A model generated the notes under the pieces. It saw nothing but the letters and a program-made list of their open reading frames with translations. It was not told the origin of the DNA and made no database searches. 64,000 nucleotides of DNA from a bacterium. GTDB taxonomy: Bacteria > Patescibacteriota > Minisyncoccia > Phycocordibacterales > UBA5272. Made by a program: the position numbers and the translations under genes. The stretch lies in NCBI GenBank assembly GCA_023267595.1, contig JAHFNB010000004.1, positions 182 to 64,181 on the forward strand. Reading direction: 5' to 3'. Positions 1 to 62,199 of the stretch are shown piece after piece (position 1 is the stretch's first letter; every line of letters starts with the position of its first letter).

Positions 1-46
1 CACATTGACGTTGTGAATGTCAGAGGTTCGAATCCTCTATCGCCCA
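1..46 (+). tRNA. partial tRNA, 3' portion only (window begins inside the gene); isotype not determinable
   Basis: T-arm agagg/ttcgaat/cctct (about 22-38), acceptor 3' strand atcgccc (39-45), discriminator A46; possible long variable-arm hairpin acatt...aatgt (2-20). The 5' half lies outside the window. Confidence 0.5.
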
Positions 47-343
47 CAAGAAATAAACGAAGTGATTTTTTTATGGGCGATAAGTACGACACCTGCGTGT
101 CGTATGTGAGGATTCGAATAGGGGTCGAAGAGTCTACTGTTTTGAGTAATCACAAAACGAGACGAGGTGACCGAACATCCTCTATCGCCCACAAGAAATA
201 AACGAAGTGATTTTTTTATGGGCGATAAGTACGACACCTGCGTGTCGTATGTGAGGATTCGAATAGGGGTCGAAGAGTCTACTGTTTTGAGTAATCACAA
301 AACGAGACGAGGTGACCGAACATCCTCTATCGCCCACAAGAAA
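34..343 (+). repeat. tandem direct repeat, about 2.1 copies of a 145-bp unit (34-178, 179-323, partial 324-343); each unit starts with the tRNA 3'-end core cctctatcgcccacaagaaa
   Basis: Read directly: the core recurs at 34, 179 and 324 (period 145) and the two full units are identical. The first copy overlaps the genuine T-arm/acceptor; later copies lack the T-stem partner. Confidence 0.85.
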
Positions 344-3881: not shown

Positions 3882-4286
3882 TTAGTGAAAGATAAATTTT
3901 TTACGAACCCAAAAGTTGTAGATGAGTATAATACAGGTCGATATCATTTTTGAAAAAAGATAGTATACGGCAAGTTTTTCTGTAAAAAACCAGATGAGAG
4001 ATTGGTTAAGTGCGAGGCCTGTGAGACTCACAAAAACTATGAGCCAGTATTCTTTGTGAATATTTGCAATTTTTGACCCTGTAAAGACGAAATATTTTGC
4101 AAGAATGTAATTGATATTTAGCCCAATAATAAATGCAATTGCTGCAGAAGTTAAGTAGTGAATATGTGCATATTCTGTAAGAGTAAAAAGTGTACCGAAA
4201 TCAAATAAAAAAGCCGTACCACCAACGAGGAGATATTTGAAAAACTGTAGTGCTAGTTTCTCATGCTTTTTAAGCAGGGTTATCAT
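3882..4286 (-). CDS. GtrA-family small membrane protein (polysaccharide synthesis/translocation accessory)
   Basis: About 130 aa, four TM helices, N-terminal motif FFKYLLVGGTAFLFDFG typical of the GtrA family. Confidence 0.65.
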   Translation of the reverse strand: MITLLKKHEKLALQFFKYLLVGGTAFLFDFGTLFTLTEYAHIHYLTSAAIAFIIGLNINYILAKYFVFTGSKIANIHKEYWLIVFVSLTGLALNQSLIWFFTEKLAVYYLFSKMISTCIILIYNFWVRKKFIFH

Positions 4287-4305: not shown

Positions 4306-5820
4306 TTACACTCCACGCAAAACGGTTATTTTCGCTCCAATCGCGTTTAATCTCTCGGCAATATCTGCATACCCACGTTTTATAGAATAGACGTTTCTGA
4401 GCAAGGATGTGCCTGATGCTCCAAGCATTGCAATCAGAATAATTGCCGTAGGACGAAGTGCAGGAGGGGATACAATTTGTGCACCGCGCAGTTTGGTCAC
4501 TCCTGTAACTAGTGCTCGGTGTGGGTCGAGTAATTTTATATCTGCACCGAGTCTGTTTAATTCCGTAAAATAAATAGCACGATTCTCCCATGTCCAATCA
4601 TGAATAAGTGTTTGACCAGAGGCTATGCAACTAATGGGGACAAAGAAAGGGAGATTATCATTATTAATACCGGGAAAAGGTTGTGCATGTATCTTATCTG
4701 TCGGAGCAATGATTTTTGAAGGAAATATAGTGATATCGACAAGTGAAGTTCTGCCATTTTTTGCAAAATATAATTTTGAAAGGGTAAAACGTAATCCCAT
4801 ACGTTTTAATTTTTCTAATTCGAGTGTAAGAAATGTAATTGGTGCACGTGTTATGGTGAGTTTGGATTTTGTCACGATTCCTGCGGCAATGAAGAACATA
4901 CTCTCTATTGGATCTTCACTATTGTAGTGTTCGATATTTACATCGATATCCTTTTTCCCATGTACTATAAGTGTTGTGGTACCAATACCTTCTATTACTA
5001 TACCAAAACTCTCTAGGAGGAAACATACATCTTGTACTTGATAATTTGGTGGTGCAAACATAATAGTTGTTTTCCCTTCAATACGTGATGCGGCCAGAAT
5101 TGCAGTAATCGCACCAGTGTCAGATGATTCGTAGAGTGGAATAGTCCCCGTATGTAGTTTTCTATATGAAATATCGTAGTGGTTTTCTTTTGTCTCGACA
5201 TTAATACCAAGGTATTCTAGAGCATATTTATGTGATGCAACCGTGCGTTCACCCATTTTACATCCACCAGAATGTGGAAGTGTAAAATGATTACCATAAT
5301 GAACAAATGCACCCGCAAAGGTAAATGATCTAATTTGTGTTGCAACGGCTTTGTCTATTTTTGAAAAAGAAAGTTTCTTAGGGGGTGTGATTTCAAGAGC
5401 AGTGTCATCATATATCCACTTTATCTTTACACCGACACTTTCGAGCAATTCTTTGTAGCGATGTACTTCTTCTATGTGGGGGATATCACGTAAAATAGTC
5501 GTGCCATTATTGACGAGTGCAGCAACCATCATATTGATGGCACCATTTTTTGAGGTATTTGTCTTTATACTACCTGAAAGTTTATGACCACCCTCTACTT
5601 TGAAATCAATAGCATTGTGAATACTCACTATGTTGTGTTTAAGGACGTCGCTCATCTTCATGAGTTGGTCTATAGTTACATTTTGATTTCCTGATTCTAT
5701 GCGCGCAACTGCAGACTGGGATGTTTTGAGAGACTTTGCAAATTCTCCTTGCGTCATTCCACGCTCTTCACGTAGTTTTTTTATGAAAAGTCCTATTTTT
5801 TCTTGATCATTAGGAGGCAT
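4306..5820 (-). CDS. murA: UDP-N-acetylglucosamine 1-carboxyvinyltransferase (MurA) fused in frame to an N-terminal XRE-family helix-turn-helix domain
   Basis: Residues 10-55 (IGLFIKKLREERGMTQGEFAKSLKTSQSAVARIESG) form an HTH_3 domain. The remainder aligns to MurA, including the catalytic loop GGCKMGERTV (E. coli GGCTIGARPVD) and the C-terminal RGYADIAERLNAIGAKI. Confidence 0.8.
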   Translation of the reverse strand: MPPNDQEKIGLFIKKLREERGMTQGEFAKSLKTSQSAVARIESGNQNVTIDQLMKMSDVLKHNIVSIHNAIDFKVEGGHKLSGSIKTNTSKNGAINMMVAALVNNGTTILRDIPHIEEVHRYKELLESVGVKIKWIYDDTALEITPPKKLSFSKIDKAVATQIRSFTFAGAFVHYGNHFTLPHSGGCKMGERTVASHKYALEYLGINVETKENHYDISYRKLHTGTIPLYESSDTGAITAILAASRIEGKTTIMFAPPNYQVQDVCFLLESFGIVIEGIGTTTLIVHGKKDIDVNIEHYNSEDPIESMFFIAAGIVTKSKLTITRAPITFLTLELEKLKRMGLRFTLSKLYFAKNGRTSLVDITIFPSKIIAPTDKIHAQPFPGINNDNLPFFVPISCIASGQTLIHDWTWENRAIYFTELNRLGADIKLLDPHRALVTGVTKLRGAQIVSPPALRPTAIILIAMLGASGTSLLRNVYSIKRGYADIAERLNAIGAKITVLRGV

Positions 5821-21162: not shown

Positions 21163-21222
21163 AACATTAAAGAAATTGTATATCCACTGTAGTCTGTTAA
21201 CTCTAGACTGTATACTATCTAC

Positions 21223-21744
21223 ATGTTTCTTACTCCCGAACACTTGGTCAAAGAATTATATTTAAAAGCAGGTGATAGAGCAGCCGACATTGGTTGCGGT
21301 ACTGGTGTGTATACAATTGCTCTTGCACAAGAAGTAGGAGATGTAGGACAAGTATATGCAGTGGATGTACACAGAGATATATTACACACGCTTGCAGGTA
21401 CACTTGAAAAGCGTTCTATCATGAATGTAGAAATAGTTTGGGCAGATATCGAAAAAGGAATACCGATAGACGCATATTCACTAGATGCAGTCGTTATTTC
21501 GAACGTACTCTTTCAACTTGAGGATATTGATGCCATGTTGTCCTATGTAGCAAAACTCTTGAAACCAGAAGGACAACTACTGGTTGTAGAGTGGAGTGCA
21601 TCACACTCGGGTATTGGTCCACATACAGATCATGTAGTAGAGGAATCTCGTGCAGAATCTCTCGTCCAAAAACACGGGTTTAGAATTATAAAACATCTTC
21701 CCGCAGGGAATTATCATTACGCATTTATTGCTTTATCGATGTAG
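21223..21744 (+). CDS. class I SAM-dependent methyltransferase
   Basis: Motif I DIGCGTGVYT and post-II LKPEGQLLVVEW. Confidence 0.75.
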   Translation: MFLTPEHLVKELYLKAGDRAADIGCGTGVYTIALAQEVGDVGQVYAVDVHRDILHTLAGTLEKRSIMNVEIVWADIEKGIPIDAYSLDAVVISNVLFQLEDIDAMLSYVAKLLKPEGQLLVVEWSASHSGIGPHTDHVVEESRAESLVQKHGFRIIKHLPAGNYHYAFIALSM

Positions 21745-21760
21745 GAATTAGAAAATACAA

Positions 21761-21790
21761 AGAGCAACCACGAAGTGGTTGCTCTTTGTA
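21761..21790 (+). terminator. intrinsic terminator agagcaaccac-gaa-gtggttgctct followed by T-rich sequence, then a short ctaccac x3 microrepeat
   Basis: 11-bp perfect stem. Confidence 0.6.
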
Positions 21791-21832
21791 TCCACTACCA
21801 CCTACCACCTACCACCTGTATACTAGTCTTAT

Positions 21833-23134
21833 ATGTTACGTAATATTCTTCTTGGTGTTGGAGTTTTTGCTGCACTCTTTTCTGTTTTAATTTTCTCTGG
21901 AAAACTTCCTATTGGAAATAACAGTGCAAATACGCCAAAAGGTGAAGTAGTTTTGTGGGGAACATTTCCAGAAACTGCGATAAATCCAATCATTCAAGCC
22001 TTTAATCCACAAGCAAAGACGTATCGTGTTACGTATAAAGAAGTCCGTGCAGATGTTTTCTCTCAGACACTTGTTGAGGCACTCGCAAATGGGACAGGGC
22101 CAGATATGATTCTTGCTCCTCATCAAATCATCCTTTCCCAAGCATCACGACTATATCCATTTCCACTTACATCATTTTCAGAAAAGAATTTCAAAGATAC
22201 ATACGTTGATGGAGCAACACTTTTTTTTAGTCCATATGGCGCAATTGCACTTCCTGTTTCTATAGAACCAATGGTGCTGTTCTACAATCGAACACTTTTT
22301 TCAAAGCATGGTATTGCTTCACCACCTGCGTACTGGGATGAAGTACTTAAGTTTACGCCATCACTTACGGTGAAAAATAGTAAAGGGCAATTTCTAGAAG
22401 CAGCAATTGCACTCGGCGCGGGAAATGTTCCATACGCAAAAGATATTTTGATGGCAGGAGTTTCAGAACTTGGTCAAATAGCAGTACTCACACAATATAA
22501 TCAAGAAGGGACACTCGTTCCATCTGTTTATGCAAATACGGCAACAACAGAAGGAGGAGATGTGTTGCCACTTTCTACATTTGTGCGTTTTGTGACACAA
22601 TTTGCCGATCCTACAAAATCAACATATACATGGTCAGAGTTTAATGGATTAGCAGATGACCAGTTCGTTTCTGAAAAACTCGCAATGTATATCGGGTATT
22701 CTGGAGAGTTAAATATTTTACGTGCTCGTAATCCGAAAGGGGATTTTGAAATGACATATTTCCCTCAAACACGTGGGTACAATACATTTGCAACAGGTGC
22801 ACGTATGTACGGTATAGCAACATTAAAATCTAGCAAGAATCTCACTGCTGCGCTCACTGTAGAATCACAGTTTGCAGGAAGTGGTGTCTCTCCATCACTT
22901 TCACAAATAGTAGGAGGTGTACCTGCATTACGTGCATACGCAACAACACCAGGATTATCAGATGTGATTGCACGCAGTATGCTGATTGCTCGTGCGTGGT
23001 ATGATAGTTTCCCTATACAATCTACAAATCTCACAACAACGATGCTTTCTGATATTTTACATAATCGTTATGATGTGACTGATGCAGTTGCTATCTTTGT
23101 CTCACGTCTTCAAGACCTGTATACTCCACAGTAG
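21833..23134 (+). CDS. secreted/anchored extracellular solute-binding-like protein (ABC substrate-binding family 1 fold), not adjacent to any permease
   Basis: Signal/TM segment at the N-terminus, then EVVLWGTF...PDMILAPH, typical of the periplasmic SBP N-lobe. Confidence 0.5.
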   Translation: MLRNILLGVGVFAALFSVLIFSGKLPIGNNSANTPKGEVVLWGTFPETAINPIIQAFNPQAKTYRVTYKEVRADVFSQTLVEALANGTGPDMILAPHQIILSQASRLYPFPLTSFSEKNFKDTYVDGATLFFSPYGAIALPVSIEPMVLFYNRTLFSKHGIASPPAYWDEVLKFTPSLTVKNSKGQFLEAAIALGAGNVPYAKDILMAGVSELGQIAVLTQYNQEGTLVPSVYANTATTEGGDVLPLSTFVRFVTQFADPTKSTYTWSEFNGLADDQFVSEKLAMYIGYSGELNILRARNPKGDFEMTYFPQTRGYNTFATGARMYGIATLKSSKNLTAALTVESQFAGSGVSPSLSQIVGGVPALRAYATTPGLSDVIARSMLIARAWYDSFPIQSTNLTTTMLSDILHNRYDVTDAVAIFVSRLQDLYTPQ

Positions 23135-23135
23135 T

Positions 23136-23849
23136 ATGAAAAAACAATTTTTACTTATAGCACTTTTTGCATCACTTATTGCGTTTTCGTTTACCACCCC
23201 TCTATTTGCACAAACATCAGTTCCAGTCTCTGGAGATTATGTATGTGGCGGCTCTACTCCATGCCCACTTACTGATCTTAAAAAAGTTATTTCTGGTTTC
23301 AATACACAGTATTTAATTCCAGGAGCCCTTACCTTTACACTCATTTCTGTTTTTTTTATTGTATTACTTTCACTTAAAGCAAAAGCACAAGGAGATGCTA
23401 ATGCAATTAAAACTGCTCGCTCTCAAGCAGGAAATGTACTTATCGGACTTCTAGTGATTACCCTCTTTGTTGGAGGTTTCTTTACTGTTCTTATGAAATA
23501 TCTTGGTTTACAAACGTGGGTAACTCAGTTTTTTAATATATCGACGATACTTCTTAATGCGCCTCATGCCTACGCAGCAACATATCTCCCTAATCCGTAT
23601 GGTGTGAGCAATGTCTACGATCTTTTACTCCTTGTTCTTACTCTTTTTGTAAAATGGGCAGTATATCCAGGGCTTATCGTCGTATGGGTATGGTCAGGAT
23701 TTTCTTATGTCCTTGCACAAGGGAATCCAGAAAAGATCAGTAATGCTCATAGTTGGCTCTTGTGGGCAGTTGGCTCTACGATTATTGTACTTGTAGCACA
23801 AGGGTTCTTCTTCGCACTTCAAGGGACTATTTCAACTATACTCTCTTAA
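23136..23849 (+). CDS. pilin-like membrane protein with two copies of a two-helix module (T4SS-pilin/TrbC-VirB2-like); paralog 1 of 4
   Basis: Signal peptide (ALFASLIAFSFTTPLFAQT), then two helix-loop-helix units; the second carries GNPEKISNAHSWLLWAVG, matching the NPEKK...LLWG loop of the downstream paralogs. Confidence 0.6.
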   Translation: MKKQFLLIALFASLIAFSFTTPLFAQTSVPVSGDYVCGGSTPCPLTDLKKVISGFNTQYLIPGALTFTLISVFFIVLLSLKAKAQGDANAIKTARSQAGNVLIGLLVITLFVGGFFTVLMKYLGLQTWVTQFFNISTILLNAPHAYAATYLPNPYGVSNVYDLLLLVLTLFVKWAVYPGLIVVWVWSGFSYVLAQGNPEKISNAHSWLLWAVGSTIIVLVAQGFFFALQGTISTILS

Positions 23850-23902
23850 TAACTACATGGTAGACGGACAAAATATAGGGTACACTAATAATCATTAATC
23901 CT

Positions 23903-24805
23903 ATGAAACATATTTTTAACGTACGATTTCTTATTATCACTTCGTTAGTAGCCATTCCCTTAGTTGTAAGTGCTCAAGGTGTTACAGATCTCAATAATGG
24001 TATCAGTGCATTAGGAGGAGTTTTCAATACTATTACAACAACAGTATTGAAATCTCTCGCAGGACTCTTTGCAACCGCAGCAATGGCAATATTCTTCTTT
24101 GGTATTGCACAGTATATCTTTGGAGCGCGCGCCGGAGATGCAAAAAAGATAGAAGATGGAAACAGATTTATGCGTTGGGGACTAGTTGCACTCTTTGTTA
24201 TGTTCTCTGTATGGGGAATAATAACGTACGTACAGAATATATTTGGTATCAAGGGACAAAATACTATTATTATTCCAACTATTGATTTTATGAGAGGATC
24301 TGGAAATAATTCTCCATCATCTAATTCTGCAAATATTGGATTACCTAGTGCCGTAAGTAGAGTAGTCGGAGATGATTGTTATAGTAAATCTGTAGGGCAA
24401 GCATGTACTGGATCTGGCTACACAGGAACATGTGGAGTTTCTGATGCGGGAGTATTTGCTTGTTATGCAAATACAGGTAGTACTTTTAGTGGATCTTCAA
24501 TTTTCAATTCATTATTTGGTAATAGTAATCCATCTGTATCTCAACAAAATACTGCTACAAATGCTTATCAAGATTGTATGGCAAAAGGAGGGACTGGTGC
24601 ACAGTGTCAATCAGTTTATGAGAATAGTATCAATACAAAAACTTCAAGTTCTGGAACTGGAGGTATTTCTAATAGTTGTCCTAGTGGAACTGCTTATGAT
24701 CCTGGCACTGGTGGATGTGAACCTACCACTAGTTCTAACTCTAATAGTTGTACTGCCTCTGGTGGAGTTCTTGCAGGAGATGGTACATGCCAAGCAGCCC
24801 CATAA
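23903..24805 (+). CDS. pilin-like protein (paralog 2) with a long Cys-rich, Gly/Ser/Thr-rich C-terminal tail
   Basis: Signal peptide, then the helix-loop-helix core AGDAKKIEDGNRFMRWGLVALFVMFSVWGI, then about 170 aa of low-complexity sequence with 10 Cys. Confidence 0.6.
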   Translation: MKHIFNVRFLIITSLVAIPLVVSAQGVTDLNNGISALGGVFNTITTTVLKSLAGLFATAAMAIFFFGIAQYIFGARAGDAKKIEDGNRFMRWGLVALFVMFSVWGIITYVQNIFGIKGQNTIIIPTIDFMRGSGNNSPSSNSANIGLPSAVSRVVGDDCYSKSVGQACTGSGYTGTCGVSDAGVFACYANTGSTFSGSSIFNSLFGNSNPSVSQQNTATNAYQDCMAKGGTGAQCQSVYENSINTKTSSSGTGGISNSCPSGTAYDPGTGGCEPTTSSNSNSCTASGGVLAGDGTCQAAP

Positions 24806-24874
24806 TCACTGTTCACACTCTTCCTTGCAAAGAACCTTAAGGGAGATATACTAATACAATACAACTATAACATT

Positions 24875-25333
24875 ATGAAAAAAGCCTTAATCTCATTATC
24901 AATTGTGCTTGGAGGAATCATGCTCGTATCTGCTCAAGTTATTCAAGTAGGGGGAACTGTTGGTGGAACACCGGTATTAGTTGGTAGTCAAAATGGAGGA
25001 ACATTACTTATTGGTCAAAGTGCAGTACAAGGTCAAGTAAATGGTGGAGCACTCATTGCACTTATTCGTCTTGCAAATGATATCGTGGCACGTCTTGGTA
25101 TTTTTGCAGTAGGACTAGCAATTCTTTCATTCTTTTGGTTCCTTATTGAGTTTATTTGGAAAGGAAGAGCAGATCCAGAAGCAAAGAACACTTCTCTCAA
25201 AGGTATGGGATATGCAATACTCGCAATATTTGTGATGGTATCTATTTGGGGGATAGTAGGGTTACTTGGTTCAATTACAGGTGTAGGACAAGGTGGTTCA
25301 GTTCCAATTCCTTCGATTCCAGTTGCAAATTAA
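24875..25333 (+). CDS. pilin-like protein (paralog 3; candidate major subunit)
   Basis: Signal peptide, core FFWFLIEFIWKGRADPEAKNTSLKGMGYAILAIFVMVSIWGIVG. Followed by a strong terminator. Confidence 0.6.
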   Translation: MKKALISLSIVLGGIMLVSAQVIQVGGTVGGTPVLVGSQNGGTLLIGQSAVQGQVNGGALIALIRLANDIVARLGIFAVGLAILSFFWFLIEFIWKGRADPEAKNTSLKGMGYAILAIFVMVSIWGIVGLLGSITGVGQGGSVPIPSIPVAN

Positions 25334-25353
25334 TTTCTAGAGTTATAGAAAAC

Positions 25354-25384
25354 AAAACCTGCACATGTGCAGGTTTTGTTTTGG
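25354..25384 (+). terminator. strong intrinsic terminator aaaacctgcaca-tgtgcaggtttt followed by a T-run
   Basis: Perfect palindrome followed by ttttgtttt. Confidence 0.75.
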
Positions 25385-25413
25385 TATAAGAGGATGTATA
25401 CTTTGTAATATCT

Positions 25414-25680
25414 ATGAATGCAAAGATTATAAATGGCGAGGCAGTATTCCAAGGAGTTATTACTCAGATATTTAATCCACTCTATCAATTAATTACTGCA
25501 CTAGCAGTTGTTTATTTTCTTTTTGGTGTAGCAAAGTTTATCTACGATATCAACAATCCAGAGAAAAAAACAGATGGCAAGAATCATCTCTTGTGGGGAC
25601 TATTTGGATTATTTATTATTCTTTCATTAGGTGGCATACTTCCTTTTTTTATAAGTATATTTGGCGGGGCTTTTAAGTAA
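25414..25680 (+). CDS. pilin-like protein (paralog 4, 88 aa, no obvious cleavable signal)
   Basis: Core VVYFLFGVAKFIYDINNPEKKTDGKNHLLWGLFGLFIILSLGG has the same motif as paralogs 1-3. Confidence 0.55.
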   Translation: MNAKIINGEAVFQGVITQIFNPLYQLITALAVVYFLFGVAKFIYDINNPEKKTDGKNHLLWGLFGLFIILSLGGILPFFISIFGGAFK

Positions 25681-27607: not shown

Positions 27608-27653
27608 TTCTTTTCCACTACTGACTGATAACTGTTCACTGTATACTACATAT

Positions 27654-28730
27654 ATGGATAAGAAACTCCGTGTAGCAATCAATGGATTTGGGCGCATTGG
27701 TCGTGCGTTTTTTAAAGTAGCGCTTGCACATCCAGACATTGAGATTGTCGCAGTGAATGACTTGGGAGACGTACATAATCTCGCATATCTTCTTCAGTAC
27801 GATACTGTATATCGCGTGTCTTCATTTGATGTGCACGCAGAGATACATGAGGAAAGTAAAGAGCAATATCTTGTTATCGAAGGTGATATAGATATGAAAG
27901 TAAAAGTGGTACAGGAAAAAGACCCTAACTTGCTTCCGTGGAAGAGTATGGAAATTGATGTCGTAGTAGAATCAACAGGACTTTTTACAACATATGATAA
28001 AGCACAGGCTCATATCACTGCAGGAGCAAAACATGTGGTAATCTCAGCGCCTGCAAAAGACGGAGTAGATACAACAGTACTTGGAGAGACCATTTTAATG
28101 GGGGTAAATGAAGAAAAGTTTGGTACATGTACTATAACATCAAATGCATCATGTACCACGAATGCCTCATCCCCACTTATTGCAATACTTGATGAGACAT
28201 TAGGTATTGAAAAAGCAATTTTAAATACAGTACACGCGTATACCGCATCTCAAAGTATTGTAGACGGACCAAATAAAAAAGATTTTCGTGAAGGTAGGGC
28301 TGCTGCACAAAATATTGTCCCATCATCAACTGGTGCAGCAATCGCAGTGACAAAAGCATTTACAAAACTAACGGGACTATTTGATGGAATATCTATGCGC
28401 GTACCAGTTCCTGCAGGTTCAATCGTGGATGTTACCTTTATTTCAAAAAAAGAAACGACTGTGGAAGAAGTAAATAAGATTCTCACAGAAGCCTCACGTA
28501 TAAATAGATGGAAAGATATTTTTACAGTTACAGAAGAAGAATTAGTATCTAGTGATATCTTAGGACTTCCGTTTGCATCTATTGCAGATCTCAAAATGAC
28601 GCGTGTAGTAGGGGGAAATTTGGTGAAAGTACTGGCGTGGTATGATAATGAAATGGGGTATACTCACACACTAGTCGCACACGTTTTAAAAGCAGGAAAG
28701 ACAATACAGACAGTAGACAGTAGACTGTAG
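27654..28730 (+). CDS. gap: glyceraldehyde-3-phosphate dehydrogenase
   Basis: NGFGRIGR NAD motif and active-site SNASCTTN. Internal ATG chosen; the ORF-track start at 27510 reads through tRNA-derived repeats. Confidence 0.9.
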   Translation: MDKKLRVAINGFGRIGRAFFKVALAHPDIEIVAVNDLGDVHNLAYLLQYDTVYRVSSFDVHAEIHEESKEQYLVIEGDIDMKVKVVQEKDPNLLPWKSMEIDVVVESTGLFTTYDKAQAHITAGAKHVVISAPAKDGVDTTVLGETILMGVNEEKFGTCTITSNASCTTNASSPLIAILDETLGIEKAILNTVHAYTASQSIVDGPNKKDFREGRAAAQNIVPSSTGAAIAVTKAFTKLTGLFDGISMRVPVPAGSIVDVTFISKKETTVEEVNKILTEASRINRWKDIFTVTEEELVSSDILGLPFASIADLKMTRVVGGNLVKVLAWYDNEMGYTHTLVAHVLKAGKTIQTVDSRL

Positions 28731-28750: not shown

Positions 28751-29107
28751 ATGTCCTCATACAAAGATTTAATTGTTTGGCAAAAATCTTATAAACTTTC
28801 GCTTTTGATTTATTCAATTACCAAAAAATTTCCTAAAGAAGAAATGTTTGGATTAGTTTCTCAAATGCGCCGAGCAAGTGTATCTATTCCAAGTAATATA
28901 GCAGAAGGTAATAATAGGTTTGGTAAAAAAGACAATGCACAATTTCTTAGAATTGCTTATGGCTCTGCATCTGAACTTGAAACACAGTTATCAATTTCTA
29001 AAGATTTGAAGTTTACTTCAGATAAGGAGTATACTGAAGCATCAGGATTACTTTCTGAAATCATGAAAATGCTCTACACATTATTAGTTCGGGTCTCTAA
29101 TGTCTAA
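28751..29107 (+). CDS. four-helix-bundle protein (TIGR02436 / 23S rRNA intervening-sequence protein family)
   Basis: DLIVWQKSYKL...FPKEEMFGLVSQMRRASVSIPSNIAEGNNR matches the family signature. Confidence 0.75.
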   Translation: MSSYKDLIVWQKSYKLSLLIYSITKKFPKEEMFGLVSQMRRASVSIPSNIAEGNNRFGKKDNAQFLRIAYGSASELETQLSISKDLKFTSDKEYTEASGLLSEIMKMLYTLLVRVSNV

Positions 29108-57042: not shown

Positions 57043-58758
57043 TTAATGGATACTATTTTCCAATGATTGTATTAATGTTTTGTAATATGTCTTTGGCCAT
57101 ACATGCTCGGTATATTTGTACCATTCATGGACAAGGCTAAATCGTGACGAACTATCAAAACTATAAACGGGAAGTTTTGTATGTATAGTGTCATTGGTTA
57201 TATAAATAAGAGATGGCGCAAAAAGAAATATTCCTGGAGTTTCTTCAGAGAATTCTTTTTTAACTGCTTCGTATGCAGTGATACGTGCTAGTTCGTCTTC
57301 ATCAGTACGTAGTGTTTCAAGATTGGTGTCTAACTTCTTACTCACATAATTTGAAATGTTTAATCCTGGGTATGTTCTTTGTGAAGAATGCCAAAATGCG
57401 TAAAGGTCAGATGGATTCTGAGTAATAGAACCAAATAACAATGCTTGGAAGTCTCGTTCTTTTATTACGGATTGATTAAGATCAGATACTTCATAAACAG
57501 CAATCGTTGTATGAACACCAATTATTTCCCAATTTGCTTTTATCATTTCTGCAACCTTCTTCATTTCATCAGTGTTTGCTGTAGCAAGAGTGATATCAAT
57601 AGTACTCGATGCTTTTTTAAATGCTTTATTGGTAGATAAAAGTGCACGTGCTTGTGCAACATCATATGGAGAAGGGGTGATATCTTCATCAAAAGGATAT
57701 GGGTCATTGATTACCTTTCCATATTTATGGAGTACTGTGTCAACAATTGCTTGCTTATTAATTGCAAGAGAAAGTGCTTTGCGTACTTGTTTGTCAGACA
57801 AGATGTTTGCTTTATTTGGATTAAAGAAAATAGAAAAGGTTCGAGGAAGTAATGATGTATGAATACTATTTGTTGGTAGAGAAAGAGAGTCAACTTTTTC
57901 TGGTGAGATGCCGTGTATTCTATCTACGTCTCCATTTTCAAATGCTTGAAGCAGATACTTTTCATTTTGATATGTATCAATAATAACTGTATCTACATAA
58001 GGGCGATTAAGTGTATATGTTTTATGTGCTTCTAGAGTAAAGGTAACAGGGATACCAGAATTAGTCTTTATGTCAGTAATTTTATATGGACCACTACCGA
58101 TTGCATGAATATTAAAATCACTAAGACTAAATTGTTCCTCAGAAAGATTCTTCCAAACATTTTTTGGAAGAATACCAATGCTCAATATATCCATAAAAAG
58201 AGGAAATGGTTTTTTAAGAGAAAAAGTAAACTCATTATCATTTTGTTTTTCAATACTTACTCCTTCCCACTCAATACGATGAGGACTTTTTATATTTGGA
58301 TCTTGGATAAGAGAAATAGTATAGATGACATCATCACTTGTTACTTTTGTTCCGTTATGAAAATAGGCTGAAGATTTAAGTACTACGTCGTAGTGTAATC
58401 GATCATCACTTTCAGTAATTGATTCTGCCATATCAAGAACAGTTCGCCCAAGTTCATCTTTTTTGGTGAGTCCTGCATAAATAAGTGAGGTGAGATCCTT
58501 GTCTTGTTCACTGCTTGCAAGTACTGGGTTTATGAAGCGAGGAGTTCCAATAATTCCTTCATGAATCTTACCTCCATAGGAAGGAGTAGTGATGAGGAAT
58601 CTAGTATTAAAAATAATAAGTGCTGAAAAAATAAGTACTATAGAAAGAGATATAAGAGCCCACAATGCTAAAACATACTCTGGAGAAAGAGATGTGTAGA
58701 GAACACGTATATGATCACGTAATACTTTTATTTTTGAGATATAGTTTTGAGTGTCCAT
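57043..58758 (-). CDS. family-5 extracellular solute-binding protein (peptide/nickel SBP-like), N-terminally anchored; no adjacent permease
   Basis: N-terminal TM segment, then about 520 aa with an SBP_bac_5-like pattern. Confidence 0.55.
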   Translation of the reverse strand: MDTQNYISKIKVLRDHIRVLYTSLSPEYVLALWALISLSIVLIFSALIIFNTRFLITTPSYGGKIHEGIIGTPRFINPVLASSEQDKDLTSLIYAGLTKKDELGRTVLDMAESITESDDRLHYDVVLKSSAYFHNGTKVTSDDVIYTISLIQDPNIKSPHRIEWEGVSIEKQNDNEFTFSLKKPFPLFMDILSIGILPKNVWKNLSEEQFSLSDFNIHAIGSGPYKITDIKTNSGIPVTFTLEAHKTYTLNRPYVDTVIIDTYQNEKYLLQAFENGDVDRIHGISPEKVDSLSLPTNSIHTSLLPRTFSIFFNPNKANILSDKQVRKALSLAINKQAIVDTVLHKYGKVINDPYPFDEDITPSPYDVAQARALLSTNKAFKKASSTIDITLATANTDEMKKVAEMIKANWEIIGVHTTIAVYEVSDLNQSVIKERDFQALLFGSITQNPSDLYAFWHSSQRTYPGLNISNYVSKKLDTNLETLRTDEDELARITAYEAVKKEFSEETPGIFLFAPSLIYITNDTIHTKLPVYSFDSSSRFSLVHEWYKYTEHVWPKTYYKTLIQSLENSIH

Positions 58759-59076: not shown

Positions 59077-62000
59077 TTATTGAAGTACTTTTACCTCATC
59101 AATTGCAATAGTTTTTTCTCCATTTCTTGTAGAGACTTTACCACGCATAATAAGGGGAGTGTCGAGTTTCAAGATACTTTTATAACGTTTATATATTTCC
59201 GGGAAAATAGCCACTTCGATAACACCTGTGTAATCACGTAATTTAACAAGTGCCATCTGGTCTCCTTTTTTGGTCATGGTAGTTTTTATAGTTTCTATAA
59301 TTATTGCGAGAGATACTTCTTTACCATCAGGAGTTTCTGAATGGACTTTTTCAATATCAATACCACGACTTTCAATTTTTTCTTTCCATGGATCAAGTGG
59401 AAATCCTGAAACAAAAAGTCCGAGCAATTCTTTTTCCCATGCTAATTTTTGTTCTGCGGTAACAGGGGGTGCTTTTTTCATAACAAATGTTGAGGTCTCC
59501 ATACCACCAAATAAACTATGTTGCATGATGTTGTCTTTTACAACATGTTTATGAAAACTTAAAATGCTATCCATATTAGCAAGTATCTCTCCACGTTCAC
59601 CTAATTCATCAAGTGCTCCACACATGGTGAGTGCTTCGATAGATCGTTTATTTAAGTTTTGGTGTGTGACACGGCGAATGAAATCTTCAAATGATATGAA
59701 CTTTCCTTTTTCGTTTCGTTCTTTAATAATTGCGTCTGCAATATCGCTACCTAGATTTTTAATGGTATAGAGACCAAAACGTATTTCTTCTTTACCGTTA
59801 TCATCTTCAACAATAGAAAATTCTCCCTGACTCATATTAATATCAGGTGGTAATACTTTTATTTTCATACGTTTACATTCAGAAACGATTTCTGCAATCT
59901 TTTCTATATCACCACTTTCATTAGTCATGATGGATGTCATGTAGGCAACAGGGAAGTTTGCTTTCATGTATGCTGTTTGGTAGGCAACACGTCCATAACT
60001 AGCAGCATGTGCTTTGTTGAATCCATATGCGGCGAATGGTTCGATAAGTGACCAAAGTAACTGGCTTTTCTTAGCAGAGAGACCATGCTCAACGAAACCT
60101 TTCAAAAGGTTTTCTTTTTGTGCTTGCATTTCTGCGGGAATCTTTTTACCCATTGCTTTACGAAGTGTATCTGCTTTAAGCCATGAGTATCCTGCTAAGT
60201 GAATAGCAATGAGCATCACATCATCTTGGTAAACAATGACACCAAATGATTGATCAAGAATTGGTTCTAATCTCGGATCCACATATGAAATAAGTGAAGG
60301 GTCATGTTTACGTTTTATATATTCAGGAATCATTTCAAGAGGTCCTGGACGATACAGTGCTACCATTGCATTTATATCAAATATAGTTGTTGGCTTTAAC
60401 TCTTTTAAAAATCGCGTCATTCCAGAACCATTTAATTGAAATAGTCCCATTGTTTCACCTCGAGCAAGCATGTCAAAAGTTTTCTGATCATCAAGAGGAA
60501 TCTCTTCTATATCAATATCAACGCTGTAGCGTTTCTTTGCAATTTTAATTGCGTCTCCAAGAATTGTTAAGTTACGAATACCAAGAAAATCAAATTTAAG
60601 CAATCCCGCGTCTTCAATAGTGTACATGTCATATTGTGTAATAATTTTCCCACCTTTTGGATCTTTTTGAATTGGTGTAAAGTCCCAAAGTGGAGAAGGG
60701 GAGATAACAGTGCCTGCAGCATGAACAGAAATATGACGTGCACACCCTTCTACTTTTTGTGCCATATCTAGAATAATTTGTGTCTCACGGTCGGTGTCAT
60801 ACATTTCCTTGAGTTCTGGAATGTCATCAAGCGCGCTTTTGATAGTAACCGGAAAGCCTTGTTTTGGCATTGGAATTAACTTACTAATTCTATCGCCTAC
60901 AATATAAGGGAATTTCATTGCACGTGCTACGTCACGCACTGCACCACGTGCCATCATCGTACCGAATGTTCCAATCTGTGCAACATTATCCATACCATAT
61001 TTTGCTCGCACATAGTCAAGCACTTCATCACGTCCTGTATCTGCAAAGTCCATATCAATATCAGGTGCAGAAGGACGTTCAGGATTTAAAAATCGTTCGA
61101 AAGGGAGTTTATATTCGAGAGGGTTACATTTTGTAATACGAAGAAGATATGTAGTAAGAGACCCTGCAACTGATCCACGAATATTAGTGAGTATGTCATG
61201 TTCTCGTGCATAGCGTAGTAAATCGTATACCACCAAGAAATATGGCGAGTACCCTTTATCCTTAATTACTTTTAATTCGTAGTCGAGACGTGTTTGTATT
61301 ATTTCATTTAATTCTAATCCTCTAATCTCTATACCTTTGTATGCAAGTTCACGAAGATCTTCATCGTAACTTTTTTTATATTCAATATTTGGAAACACCC
61401 ATGCACCAAGTGGTATTTTCAAGTCACATTTCTCTGCGATTTTTTCAGTATTTTCTAGTGCATCAGGTACATCAGAAAACATACCGTGTACTTCATTTTG
61501 TGAGAGAAAAGAAAAAGAATCTTTTTGAAAGAGATGATTATATGACTCAGTTGAATGCTCATCACCGTGTACAAGATAGAGTGTCTTATGTGCAGGCTTA
61601 TCTTGTTCTTGTAAATAATGTGTATTGCATGTAGCAACAAGGGGAGTATTTGTAGTCTTTCCATATTCTATAGTTTTTGTTCGCATAGTCTCTCCATGCT
61701 CCATAGATTTTTGAGGATTTATTTCAAGATAAAAATCCTCGCCAAAGTTTTCTTTGTAAAAGGCTAACCTCTCATCTGCTTCTTTTCTATTAATTACAAG
61801 AAGGTTACTAATATCACCCCAGACACCACCAGATAAAACAATGAGCCCTTCTTTATAGGTTGTGAGAATACTATCAGTTATTACAGGGGAGAGTGGATTA
61901 GTAACGTTTACAATAGAAGTAATACGCATCAAGTTTTTGTACCCTATAGTATTTTTTGCAATAAGGATGATTTGAAATACTCTGTCATTATATTGAAGAG

Positions 62001-62199
62001 AGTATTCCACACCTATAATAGGTTTAATACCTTTATCAAGACAGGTTTTATAGAACTCTATAGTGCCATACATATTACTATAGTCAGTAATAGCAAGAGA
62101 TGTCATTTTTAGTTGGTTAGCCTTTTTTATCAGATCTCCTACCTTGGGAAGTGCTTTTAAAAGGGAATAATGAGTATGATTACGGAGATGGACGAACAT
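59077..62199 (-). CDS. dnaE: DNA polymerase III alpha subunit
   Basis: N-terminal PHP domain (FVHLRNHTHYSLL) and a DnaE-type polymerase core; 1040 aa. Confidence 0.95.
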   Translation of the reverse strand: MFVHLRNHTHYSLLKALPKVGDLIKKANQLKMTSLAITDYSNMYGTIEFYKTCLDKGIKPIIGVEYSLQYNDRVFQIILIAKNTIGYKNLMRITSIVNVTNPLSPVITDSILTTYKEGLIVLSGGVWGDISNLLVINRKEADERLAFYKENFGEDFYLEINPQKSMEHGETMRTKTIEYGKTTNTPLVATCNTHYLQEQDKPAHKTLYLVHGDEHSTESYNHLFQKDSFSFLSQNEVHGMFSDVPDALENTEKIAEKCDLKIPLGAWVFPNIEYKKSYDEDLRELAYKGIEIRGLELNEIIQTRLDYELKVIKDKGYSPYFLVVYDLLRYAREHDILTNIRGSVAGSLTTYLLRITKCNPLEYKLPFERFLNPERPSAPDIDMDFADTGRDEVLDYVRAKYGMDNVAQIGTFGTMMARGAVRDVARAMKFPYIVGDRISKLIPMPKQGFPVTIKSALDDIPELKEMYDTDRETQIILDMAQKVEGCARHISVHAAGTVISPSPLWDFTPIQKDPKGGKIITQYDMYTIEDAGLLKFDFLGIRNLTILGDAIKIAKKRYSVDIDIEEIPLDDQKTFDMLARGETMGLFQLNGSGMTRFLKELKPTTIFDINAMVALYRPGPLEMIPEYIKRKHDPSLISYVDPRLEPILDQSFGVIVYQDDVMLIAIHLAGYSWLKADTLRKAMGKKIPAEMQAQKENLLKGFVEHGLSAKKSQLLWSLIEPFAAYGFNKAHAASYGRVAYQTAYMKANFPVAYMTSIMTNESGDIEKIAEIVSECKRMKIKVLPPDINMSQGEFSIVEDDNGKEEIRFGLYTIKNLGSDIADAIIKERNEKGKFISFEDFIRRVTHQNLNKRSIEALTMCGALDELGERGEILANMDSILSFHKHVVKDNIMQHSLFGGMETSTFVMKKAPPVTAEQKLAWEKELLGLFVSGFPLDPWKEKIESRGIDIEKVHSETPDGKEVSLAIIIETIKTTMTKKGDQMALVKLRDYTGVIEVAIFPEIYKRYKSILKLDTPLIMRGKVSTRNGEKTIAIDEVKVLQ

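What the first reader, a model, noticed from the sequence alone, without database searches (positions are those of the whole stretch)
21833..25680. Cluster of four tandem paralogous pilin-like genes preceded by a secreted SBP-like protein
Four consecutive genes (23136-23849, 23903-24805, 24875-25333, 25414-25680) share a helix-loop-helix core with a conserved loop motif [GN][DN]PE[AK]K...G..L[LR]WG. The pattern is seen in AGDAKKIEDGNRFMRWG, ADPEAKNTSLKGMGYAIL, NNPEKKTDGKNHLLWG and GNPEKISNAHSWLLWAVG. Signal peptides are present on three of them. This two-helix architecture resembles TrbC/VirB2-type conjugative or T4SS pilins, the type reported in CPR and Firmicutes. The first gene carries two modules, and the third is followed by a very strong terminator, so it is a candidate major subunit. 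No VirB4-like ATPase or secretin is adjacent, so this may be a stand-alone surface-filament or adhesion locus. The upstream secreted SBP-fold protein has no permease partner and may be a co-functioning surface receptor.
Basis: partly seen in the sequence, partly recalled or inferred. Interest (0 to 1): 0.8.

Follow-up and report, generated by a model that had tools for sequence, protein, structure and literature searches.

The report
VirB2-like pilin array with conserved SBP
This is a typical array of VirB2/TrbC-like "T4SS pilin" genes from an ultra-small Patescibacteria (Paceibacteria) genome, a gene family already described and essential in a cultured relative; the modestly new point is that in this lineage the array always sits directly behind one membrane-anchored sugar-binding-type protein and far from any secretion motor.

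Summary
Four consecutive + strand genes (23136-23849, 23903-24805, 24875-25333, 25414-25680) encode five two-helix hairpin modules. All four match Pfam PF18895 T4SS_pilin; only the last is above the curated cut-off. G2, G3 and G4 are clear paralogues. G1 is a more distant two-module fusion whose second module belongs to a TrbC/VirB2-like subtype.

Tandem arrays of 2-11 such pilins are already published for Patescibacteria, and a six-gene array is essential in Southlakia epibionticum. The finding is therefore a new member of a known kind.

What I add comes from 69 related Paceibacteria species:
- 67 have a pilin-like ORF directly after the same anchored SBP_bac_1 protein, in the order gyrA, methyltransferase, SBP, array; 61 have at least three.
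- The array members are ordered, ancient, differentiated paralogues, not recent duplicates.
- The first two array positions carry hypervariable Cys-rich tails, and one relative carries a peptidoglycan-binding domain there.
- No VirB4, VirB6 or ABC permease lies within the window or in about 10 kb read beyond its start on the longer sister contig.

Best reading: a heteromeric set of exported pilin-like subunits, functionally coupled to the SBP and probably serviced by a T4SS encoded elsewhere. Filament formation and function remain untested. Interest is modest.

The parts
21223..21744 (+). Class I SAM methyltransferase (UbiE/Methyltransf_25-like). It is the conserved upstream neighbour of the SBP in all 69 related loci. 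A functional link is not shown.
   Evidence: Pfam. Synteny. Overlapping or short gaps to the SBP in distant loci.
21755..21791 (+). Strong hairpin (17 bp) after the methyltransferase, terminator-like. It separates the methyltransferase from the SBP transcription unit in this genome.
   Evidence: -26.8 kcal/mol, z -6.5.
21795..21824 (+). (CTACCAC)x3.3 heptamer repeat followed by TGTATACT, an extended -10-like box that ends 8 nt before the SBP ATG. No Shine-Dalgarno.
21833..23134 (+). Membrane-anchored solute-binding-fold protein (SBP_bac_1, 433 aa). It has an N-terminal transmembrane anchor without a lipobox. No permease or ATPase partner is present. It is the most conserved protein of the locus.
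   Evidence: Pfam 61 bits. TM 1-28. More than 300 homologues, the best 120 listed at 59-82% identity. PDB sugar SBPs match at E 5e-9 over the N-lobe only. Invariant aromatic and polar residues.
23118..23125 (+). TGTATACT -10-like box for G1, lying inside the 3' end of the SBP gene, 10 nt before the G1 ATG.
23136..23849 (+). G1: signal peptide, a short segment with two Cys, and two pilin-like hairpin modules. G1a is about residues 58-125. G1b is about residues 160-230 and is of the TrbC/VirB2-like 'AQGNPE' subtype. It is a fusion of two genes that are separate in distant Paceibacteria.
23903..24805 (+). G2: signal peptide, one T4SS_pilin module (residues about 41-114), and a roughly 180-aa tail rich in Cys (10), Ser, Gly, Thr and Asn (nt 24260-24802). 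The tail is predicted to be extracellular.
   Evidence: Pfam 21.9 bits. G4-orthologue profile E 1.9e-13. Tail composition and variability.
24875..25333 (+). G3: signal peptide, a Gly/Gln/Val-rich spacer, and one T4SS_pilin module (residues about 66-138).
   Evidence: Pfam 21.6 bits. E 7.7e-6 with the G4-orthologue profile. hhalign 99.8-99.9% to the G2 and G4 groups.
25349..25382 (+). Perfect 15-bp hairpin with a T-rich 3' arm after G3, terminator-like.
   Evidence: centroid -20.8 kcal/mol, MFE -24.7 kcal/mol, z -4.6.
25395..25402 (+). TGTATACT -10-like box 11 nt before the G4 ATG.
25414..25680 (+). G4: 88-aa T4SS_pilin with no signal peptide and a two-helix hairpin. It is the conserved last gene of the array and lies 6 nt upstream of the glyS ORF.
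   Evidence: Pfam 38.5 bits, above the 26.6 cut-off. NF045849 at 30.9 bits. AF2 helices H6-47 and H49-87, pLDDT 82.6. Its best hit is the last array gene in 54 of 64 loci.

Best explanation
The locus is the Paceibacteria version of the Patescibacterial VirB2/TrbC-like (Pfam T4SS_pilin) pilin array. It encodes five differentiated two-helix hairpin modules in four genes.

How it most likely works:
- G1, G2 and G3 are exported with Sec-type leaders that end in A-x-A followed by Q.
- Each module is inserted with both ends outside and the Lys/Arg-rich loop inside.
- This leaves the Cys-rich tail of G2 on the cell surface.
- The modules form a heteromeric surface or envelope structure: a short pilus or conduit used for contact with, or exchange with, a host cell.
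- That structure is most likely assembled by the MPF-FATA-like VirB4/VirB6 system, which most Patescibacteria encode elsewhere in the genome.
- The membrane-anchored SBP encoded immediately upstream is a conserved partner of the structure, acting as a receptor or ligand-capturing component.

Shown here: family membership, hairpin architecture, ordered orthology, SBP linkage, and the absence of the secretion motor nearby.

Inferred: topology, leader cleavage, filament formation, dependence on a T4SS, and the role of the SBP.
For: Family:
- PF18895 hits on all four genes; G4 is above the curated cut-off.
- A pilin-like ICE protein family, NF045849, also matches.
- 46 of 53 related modules match PF18895 and 8 match PF04956 TrbC.
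- 837 homologues were found by the word-indexed search; most of the 120 listed carry precomputed PF18895 and many also PF04956.
- 69,734 representative clusters match at E<=1e-3.

Fold: a confident two-helix hairpin.

Conserved, ordered set:
- 67 of 69 species have a pilin-like ORF directly after the SBP, and 61 have at least 3.
- 288 of 311 array genes are closer to a gene in another genome than to any paralogue in their own genome. G4-type is last in 54 of 64 loci and G1-type is first in 44 of 60.
- The same order holds in distant arrays.

Outside-facing C-termini: hypervariable Cys-rich repeat tails, and a bona fide PG_binding_1 domain (E 6e-20) on a position-2 pilin in L040.

Faster divergence than housekeeping neighbours, as expected for surface proteins.

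Precedent:
- Six PF18895 genes (SEML1_0014-0019) next to VirB6, PrgI and VirB4 are all essential in S. epibionticum (PMC10633639).
- Arrays of 2-11 pilins are reported in 383 assemblies (PMC12102498).
Against: - No VirB4, VirB6 or PrgI is present in the 64-kb window, in about 10 kb read beyond its start on the 77-kb sister contig, or within +-10 kb in any of the 69 relatives.
- No filament of this family has ever been visualised.
- A profile of the family also hits unrelated TM hairpins in the PDB at E about 1e-3, so the weak scores of G1-G3 alone would not be proof.
- Polyproteins with up to 11 fused modules exist. These are awkward for a classical extruded pilus.
- G4 lacks a signal peptide, unlike the classical VirB2, TrbC and TraA pilins (own knowledge).
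Confidence: 0.6

Rival explanations
1. The hairpin proteins are not pilus subunits. They oligomerise within the cytoplasmic membrane, and together with the anchored SBP they form a T4SS-independent envelope machine. One example would be an SBP-fed uptake pore or sensor for host-derived sugars or glycerophospho-compounds.
For: - Strict SBP-array adjacency, often with overlapping stop and start codons, over SBP identities down to 28%.
- No permease for the SBP and no T4SS genes anywhere near.
- The SBP's TM anchor is about as conserved as its globular part.
- Invariant Trp, Tyr, Asp, Asn, Arg and Glu residues suggest a retained ligand site.
- Multi-module polyproteins with 6-11 hairpins look like polytopic membrane proteins.
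Against: - The same family sits inside the T4SS cluster, without any SBP, in S. epibionticum.
- The B-type modules match TrbC/VirB2 profiles.
- No precedent exists for two-TM hairpins serving as an SBP-dependent permease, and no energising ATPase lies in the locus.
Confidence: 0.2
2. The array is a set of interchangeable variant pilins kept for antigenic or host-range variation, as proposed for Bartonella and Anaplasma VirB2 paralogues and suggested for Patescibacteria.
For: - Low identity between paralogues.
- Fast divergence of G1 and G2, with hypervariable repeat tails.
- The suggestion made in PMC12102498.
Against: - Members are ancient and position-specific. 288 of 311 have their closest relative in another genome, and the order B-type, then A-types, then a leaderless last gene holds across deep divergence.
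- Subtypes differ in architecture: presence of a signal peptide, tails, and fusion.
- No repeats or recombination substrates, and no DGR template/variable repeat pair, are present in the window.
Confidence: 0.08
3. The similarity is generic: unrelated small membrane proteins that merely share hydrophobic hairpins, with spurious Pfam hits.
For: - Three of the four Pfam scores are below the gathering cut-off.
- TM-hairpin profiles give E about 1e-3 against unrelated GPCR helices.
Against: - G4 is above the cut-off.
- G2 and G3 are the only window ORFs hit by an independent G4-orthologue profile.
- hhalign gives 99.5-99.9% among G2, G3 and G4.
- The loop motif and the gene order are conserved in 69 species.
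Confidence: 0.03

Closest known systems
Essential pilin array SEML1_0014-0019 of Candidatus Southlakia epibionticum ML1 (Wang et al. 2023, PMC10633639)
   Same: - Tandem array of small, sequence-divergent PF18895 proteins, some also matching PF04956.
- Found in a Patescibacterium.
- Most members carry leaders.
   Different: - That array lies inside the T4SS cluster, next to VirB6-like, PrgI and VirB4 genes, and has no SBP.
- The array here is unlinked from any T4SS gene, follows an anchored SBP_bac_1 protein, has four genes with one two-module fusion, and has a Cys-rich tail on gene 2.
- Essentiality is unknown here.
VirB2-like pilin arrays of Patescibacteria (Quinonero-Coronel et al. 2025, PMC12102498) and the TM7x 'array of 4-6 small signal-peptide proteins' (McLean et al. 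2018, bioRxiv 10.1101/258137)
   Same: It fits their definition: 2-11 pilin genes in tandem with about 25% mutual identity, detected with PF18895 and PF04956.
   Different: - They report arrays mainly in Microgenomatia and Saccharimonadia and interpret them as possible variation.
- Their text does not mention an SBP partner.
- Ordered orthology and the gyrA-methyltransferase-SBP context are not described there.
Conjugative VirB2/TrbC/TraA pilins of Gram-negative T4SSs (Pfam PF04956) and archaeal Ced/Ted pilins (for example PDB 8dfu)
   Same: - Small two-helix hairpin with a short polar or basic loop.
- A cleavable A-x-A-type leader on three of the four genes.
- The B-type module family gives direct PF04956 hits.
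   Different: - The host is a monoderm.
- There are no adjacent VirB genes.
- The set is heteromeric with five modules, includes gene fusions, has large C-terminal tails, and has one member without a leader.
- Cyclisation or acetylation is unknown.
- The structural match is not specific.
Mbov_0395 / MMCAP2_0565 pilin-like conjugal transfer protein of Mycoplasma ICEs (NCBIfam NF045849)
   Same: G4 (E 1.7e-7) and G2 (E 2.5e-5) match this roughly 80-aa family from another wall-less or monoderm lineage with MPF-FATA-type systems.
   Different: Scores are below the family cut-off (30.9 against 40 bits). The family is encoded on ICEs, not on the chromosome as here.
Orphan or recruited solute-binding proteins in conjugation, for example PrgZ of pCF10 (recalled from my own knowledge, not tested here)
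   Same: An SBP-fold protein working with a mating or secretion apparatus rather than being defined by its own permease.
   Different: PrgZ is an OppA-type (family 5) pheromone binder that uses the host Opp permease. The protein here is a divergent family-1 (sugar/UgpB-type) SBP with a TM anchor, and no ligand is known.

Membership tests
Pfam PF18895 T4SS_pilin (clan with PF04956 TrbC/VirB2) | Profile match at or above the curated gathering score (26.6 bits) | tested here: met
   G4 scores 38.5 bits, E 1.2e-9. The precomputed Pfam label on the public record agrees.
Pfam PF18895 T4SS_pilin (clan with PF04956 TrbC/VirB2) | The same criterion applied to G1, G2 and G3 | tested here: inconclusive
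   Scores are 25.8, 21.9 and 21.6 bits (E 1e-5 to 2e-4), all below the cut-off. G2 and G3 are rescued by paralogy to G4. G1 is supported only by hhalign at 67-94%, and by its G1b-type orthologues, which hit PF18895 and PF04956.
VirB2/TrbC-type conjugative pilin | Small protein with two hydrophobic helices joined by a short polar or basic loop | tested here: met
   Hydropathy. AF2 model of G4 with helices 6-47 and 49-87, pLDDT 82.6. Loops are rich in Lys and Arg (read from the sequence).
VirB2/TrbC-type conjugative pilin | N-terminal leader removed by signal peptidase I | tested here: inconclusive
   G1, G2 and G3 have hydrophobic leaders ending FAQ, SAQ and SAQ. G4 and its orthologues have no leader. 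No signal-peptide predictor or experiment was available.
VirB2/TrbC-type conjugative pilin | Encoded with VirB4, VirB6 and other T4SS genes | tested here: not met
   None is present in the 64-kb window, in about 10 kb read beyond its start on the 77-kb sister contig, or within +-10 kb in 69 relatives. The rest of the genome could not be searched. In Patescibacteria, pilin genes lie near virB4 in only 1,135 of 1,948 assemblies (PMC12102498).
VirB2/TrbC-type conjugative pilin | Structural similarity to solved pilins | tested here: inconclusive
VirB2/TrbC-type conjugative pilin | Polymerises into an extracellular filament | not testable with these tools
   This needs cryo-ET, shearing or proteomics. 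It has not been shown for any PF18895 protein in the papers read.
Patescibacterial VirB2-like pilin array (PMC12102498) | 2-11 pilin genes in tandem, or separated by one gene, with low mutual identity | tested here: met
   Four adjacent genes, each passing that paper's thresholds (i-E<0.001, coverage above 50%). Alignment identities of the other window modules to G4 are 14-31%.
ABC-transporter substrate-binding protein, family 1 | SBP_bac_1 profile match | tested here: met
   61.2 bits against a cut-off of 26. The PDB sugar SBPs 4qrz and 5u2p match at E 5e-9 to 7e-9, over the N-lobe only.
ABC-transporter substrate-binding protein, family 1 | Cognate permease and ATPase genes in the same operon | tested here: not met
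   No BPD_transp or ABC_tran gene is in the window or in any of the 69 related loci. The pilin array always follows instead.
Type IV pilus (T4P) pilins | Class III leader with a G/F-x-x-x-E prepilin peptidase site | tested here: not met
   None of the four N-termini contains such a motif (sequences). No T4P Pfam family was hit.

The most novel reading that the evidence does not exclude
In Paceibacteria the VirB2-like hairpin proteins have been exapted, together with a dedicated membrane-anchored SBP and possibly the adjacent methyltransferase, into a conserved machine that does not depend on a T4SS. It would be an ordered five-module membrane or surface assembly that captures and conducts a host-derived small molecule. 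That would amount to a new kind of SBP-dependent uptake or contact apparatus built from pilin folds.
Probability: 0.15. Interest if true: 0.75.

Novelty: new member of a known kind. Interest (0 to 1): 0.35.

Why it matters
How Patescibacteria obtain what they need from their hosts is an open question. The VirB2-like pilin arrays are among the few gene sets shown to be essential for epibiotic growth, yet their function is described as completely unknown (PMC11665869).

This locus adds three things:
- A lineage-wide, testable partner for the array: the anchored sugar-type SBP.
- Evidence that array members are fixed, differentiated subunits rather than interchangeable variants.
- Evidence that their C-termini face the wall or exterior.

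These points narrow the hypotheses for what the structures do. The locus does not reveal a new class of system.

Tried and rejected
1. Profile search of the module alignment against PDB sequences returned only spurious TM hairpins (viral GPCRs at E about 1e-3) and no VirB2 or TraA.
3. The AlphaFold model of the SBP from a 19-sequence alignment was poor (pLDDT 56), so I did not run a fold search on it.
4. I looked for T4SS machinery in every large or unannotated ORF of the window and on the longer sister contig and found none.
5. I looked for T4SS genes downstream of the array in distant relatives. I found two membrane proteins that I did not profile (they look SPFH-like to me), then rbfA and infB, and no counterpart of those two proteins in the window.
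6. I considered a diversity-generating retroelement, because a bAvd-like gene lies at 28751-29107. No reverse transcriptase or template/variable repeat pair was found.
7. I considered recent tandem duplication or antigenic variation and rejected it on positional orthology.
8. The supplementary tables of PMC12102498 held as text did not contain the accessions of the related genomes, so VirB4 presence in those genomes could not be read off.
9. Pfam scans of the Cys-rich tails gave no family for the window's G2 tail.

Full report
**What is there.** The window is a low-GC (about 37%) stretch of housekeeping genes from a Patescibacteria/Paceibacteria-type MAG. It corresponds to public contig ENA ERZ27279942 k141_7566441. 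Relatives are named Paceibacterota, Nomurabacteria or Kaiserbacteria.

- SBP: 433 aa, with a TM anchor and an SBP_bac_1 match of 61 bits.
- G1: 237 aa, with a leader and two hairpin modules.
- G2: 300 aa, with a leader, one module and a roughly 180-aa tail containing 10 Cys and rich in Ser, Gly, Thr and Asn.
- G3: 152 aa, with a leader, a Gly-rich spacer and one module.
- G4: 88 aa, with no leader and one module.

**Is the paralogy real?** G2, G3 and G4 are unambiguous paralogues:
- phmmer gives 40 and 27 bits.
- hhalign of orthologue groups gives 99.5-99.9%.
- A profile built only from G4 orthologues, run against 348 window ORFs, finds only G2 (E 1.9e-13) and G3 (E 7.7e-6).

G1 is more remote. 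That profile does not find it. hhalign gives 67-94% to the others, and Pfam gives 25.8 bits.

Caution is needed with weak scores on TM hairpins. The family profile also hits GPCR helices in the PDB at E about 1e-3.

**Family.**
- All four genes hit Pfam PF18895 T4SS_pilin, with G4 above the gathering score.
- G4 and G2 also hit the Mycoplasma-ICE pilin-like family NF045849.
- Of 53 related modules, 46 hit PF18895 and 8 hit PF04956 TrbC/VirB2, best E 6e-8.
- Many database homologues carry both precomputed labels, and NCBI calls some 'pilin' or 'TrbC/VirB2 family protein'.
- The family is very large: 69,734 representative clusters at E<=1e-3. It includes polyproteins with up to 11 modules.
- AlphaFold gives G4 a confident two-helix hairpin.
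- Fold searches cannot discriminate this simple fold.

**Already known.**
- An array of 4-6 small signal-peptide proteins related to VirB2 was noted in Saccharibacteria in 2018 (bioRxiv 10.1101/258137).
- Six PF18895 genes, SEML1_0014-0019, lie next to VirB6-like, PrgI and VirB4 genes and are essential in S. epibionticum (PMC10633639).
- A survey of 3,035 genomes reported 441 arrays of 2-11 pilin genes with about 25% mutual identity. In 1,135 of 1,948 assemblies the pilin gene lies near virB4 (PMC12102498).

The locus therefore belongs to a described kind.

**What the comparison adds.**
- *SBP conservation.* The SBP is far more conserved than the pilins. It has more than 300 homologues, and the best 120 listed are 59-82% identical.
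- *Fixed context.* An SBP-based scan of species-representative genomes gave 69 loci with SBP identity 28-82%. In 67 of them a pilin-like ORF follows the SBP directly. One contig ends too soon and one (L074) is negative. 61 have at least 3 pilin genes. The context is always gyrA, methyltransferase, SBP, array. Stop and start codons often overlap. Three pilin-first look-ups landed in the same arrangement, though the query profile came from this lineage.
- *Ordered members.* 288 of 311 array genes have a closer relative in another genome than in their own. G4-type is the last gene in 54 of 64 loci, and G1-type is the first in 44 of 60. In distant arrays the order is an optional G1a-type gene, then a G1b (TrbC-like) type, then G2/G3-type genes, then a leaderless G4-type gene. 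G1 is thus a fusion of two genes that are separate elsewhere.
- *Exposed tails.* Positions 1 and 2 carry hypervariable, repetitive Cys/Gly/Ser/Thr/Asn-rich C-terminal tails. In L040 the tail is a bona fide PG_binding_1 domain (E 6e-20), which places the C-terminus outside the membrane.
- *Divergence gradient.* Identities to the window's proteins are gyrA 83-87%, glyS 67-83%, methyltransferase 62-96%, SBP 53-76%, G3 and G4 39-77%, G2 36-58% and G1 32-47%.

**Signals.** Strong hairpins follow the methyltransferase and G3. TGTATACT boxes end 8-11 nt before the start codons of the SBP, G1 and G4, and there is no Shine-Dalgarno. This pattern is shared by many genes in the window, which suggests leaderless mRNAs. 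The likely transcription units are SBP-G1-G2-G3 and G4-glyS. The terminator does not by itself identify G3 as the major subunit.

**No motor nearby.** No VirB4, VirB6, PrgI or ABC permease is found in the window, in about 10 kb read beyond its start on the 77-kb sister contig, or within +-10 kb in relatives. Whether the genome encodes a T4SS elsewhere could not be tested. The literature says most Patescibacteria do, often near dnaA.

**Mechanism.**
- *Best reading (about 0.6):* exported, differentiated VirB2-like subunits form a heteromeric surface or envelope structure, assembled by a T4SS encoded elsewhere. The anchored SBP acts as a conserved receptor-like partner.
- *Main rival (about 0.2):* a T4SS-independent membrane assembly that works with the SBP.
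- *Antigenic variation:* disfavoured by positional orthology.
- *Generic membrane proteins:* rejected.

**Verdict.** The pilin interpretation is supported, but the 'stand-alone' and 'major subunit' claims are not. The locus is a new member of a known kind with a modestly new context (the SBP linkage and the ordered set). Interest is about 0.35.

Noticed in passing
window-wide, e.g. 18212, 21209, 21817, 23118, 25395, 27640; genes at 3882-4286(-), 4306-5820(-), 30289, 40284, 50604, 59077-62199(-), 62276: Most genes lack a Shine-Dalgarno sequence. Instead a -10-like TA(T/C/A)ACT box, often the extended form TGTATACT, ends 6-11 nt before the ATG. TGTATACT occurs 9 times against 3.1 expected. This suggests leaderless mRNAs are the default in this genome.
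   Followed up: partly
window 21795-21817: A perfect (CTACCAC)x3.3 heptamer repeat sits immediately upstream of the SBP's -10-like box. It could be an operator or regulatory site for the SBP-pilin unit.
   Followed up: no
window 21183-21225 and 27614-27656: The 43-nt upstream regions of the methyltransferase and of the GAPDH gene are 74% identical (TCCACT...CTGTATACTA...ATG). This suggests a shared promoter architecture.
   Followed up: no
window 32-321: Two perfect tandem copies of a 145-nt unit lie at the very start of the contig. This could be an assembly artefact at a contig end or a real duplication.
   Followed up: no
window 57043-58758 (-): A second orphan solute-binding protein (SBP_bac_5, E 8e-64) lies between secG and RNase J, again with no permease or ATPase adjacent.
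   Followed up: partly
window 28751-29107 (+): A bAvd / 23S_rRNA_IVP-type four-helix-bundle gene lies between GAPDH and rpiB and is also present in relative L004. There is no reverse transcriptase or template/variable repeat pair in the window, so it is probably not an active DGR.
   Followed up: partly
window 4306-5820 (-): A MurA/EPSP_synthase-family enzyme carries an N-terminal XRE-type HTH_3 DNA-binding domain. This is an unusual fusion.
   Followed up: no
L040:12258-13331 (+): A position-2 pilin in a related array carries a C-terminal PG_binding_1 domain (E 6.4e-20), so a VirB2-like hairpin is fused to a peptidoglycan-binding module. Other tails contain 3-4 tandem Cys-knot-like repeats (L009, L028).
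   Followed up: partly
P0278 (1147 aa, 11 modules), P0249 (820 aa, 8), P0250 (555 aa, 6): Database relatives include polyproteins made of 6-11 consecutive T4SS_pilin hairpin modules behind a single signal peptide. This is hard to reconcile with a classical pilin extracted subunit by subunit.
   Followed up: partly
L072:12671-14187 (-), L044:13569-15152 (-), L066:13303-14732 (-): In distant Paceibacteria the array is followed on the opposite strand by a conserved pair of membrane proteins of about 150 aa and about 300-370 aa (SPFH-like by eye; not profiled), then rbfA and infB. No counterpart is present in the window.
   Followed up: partly
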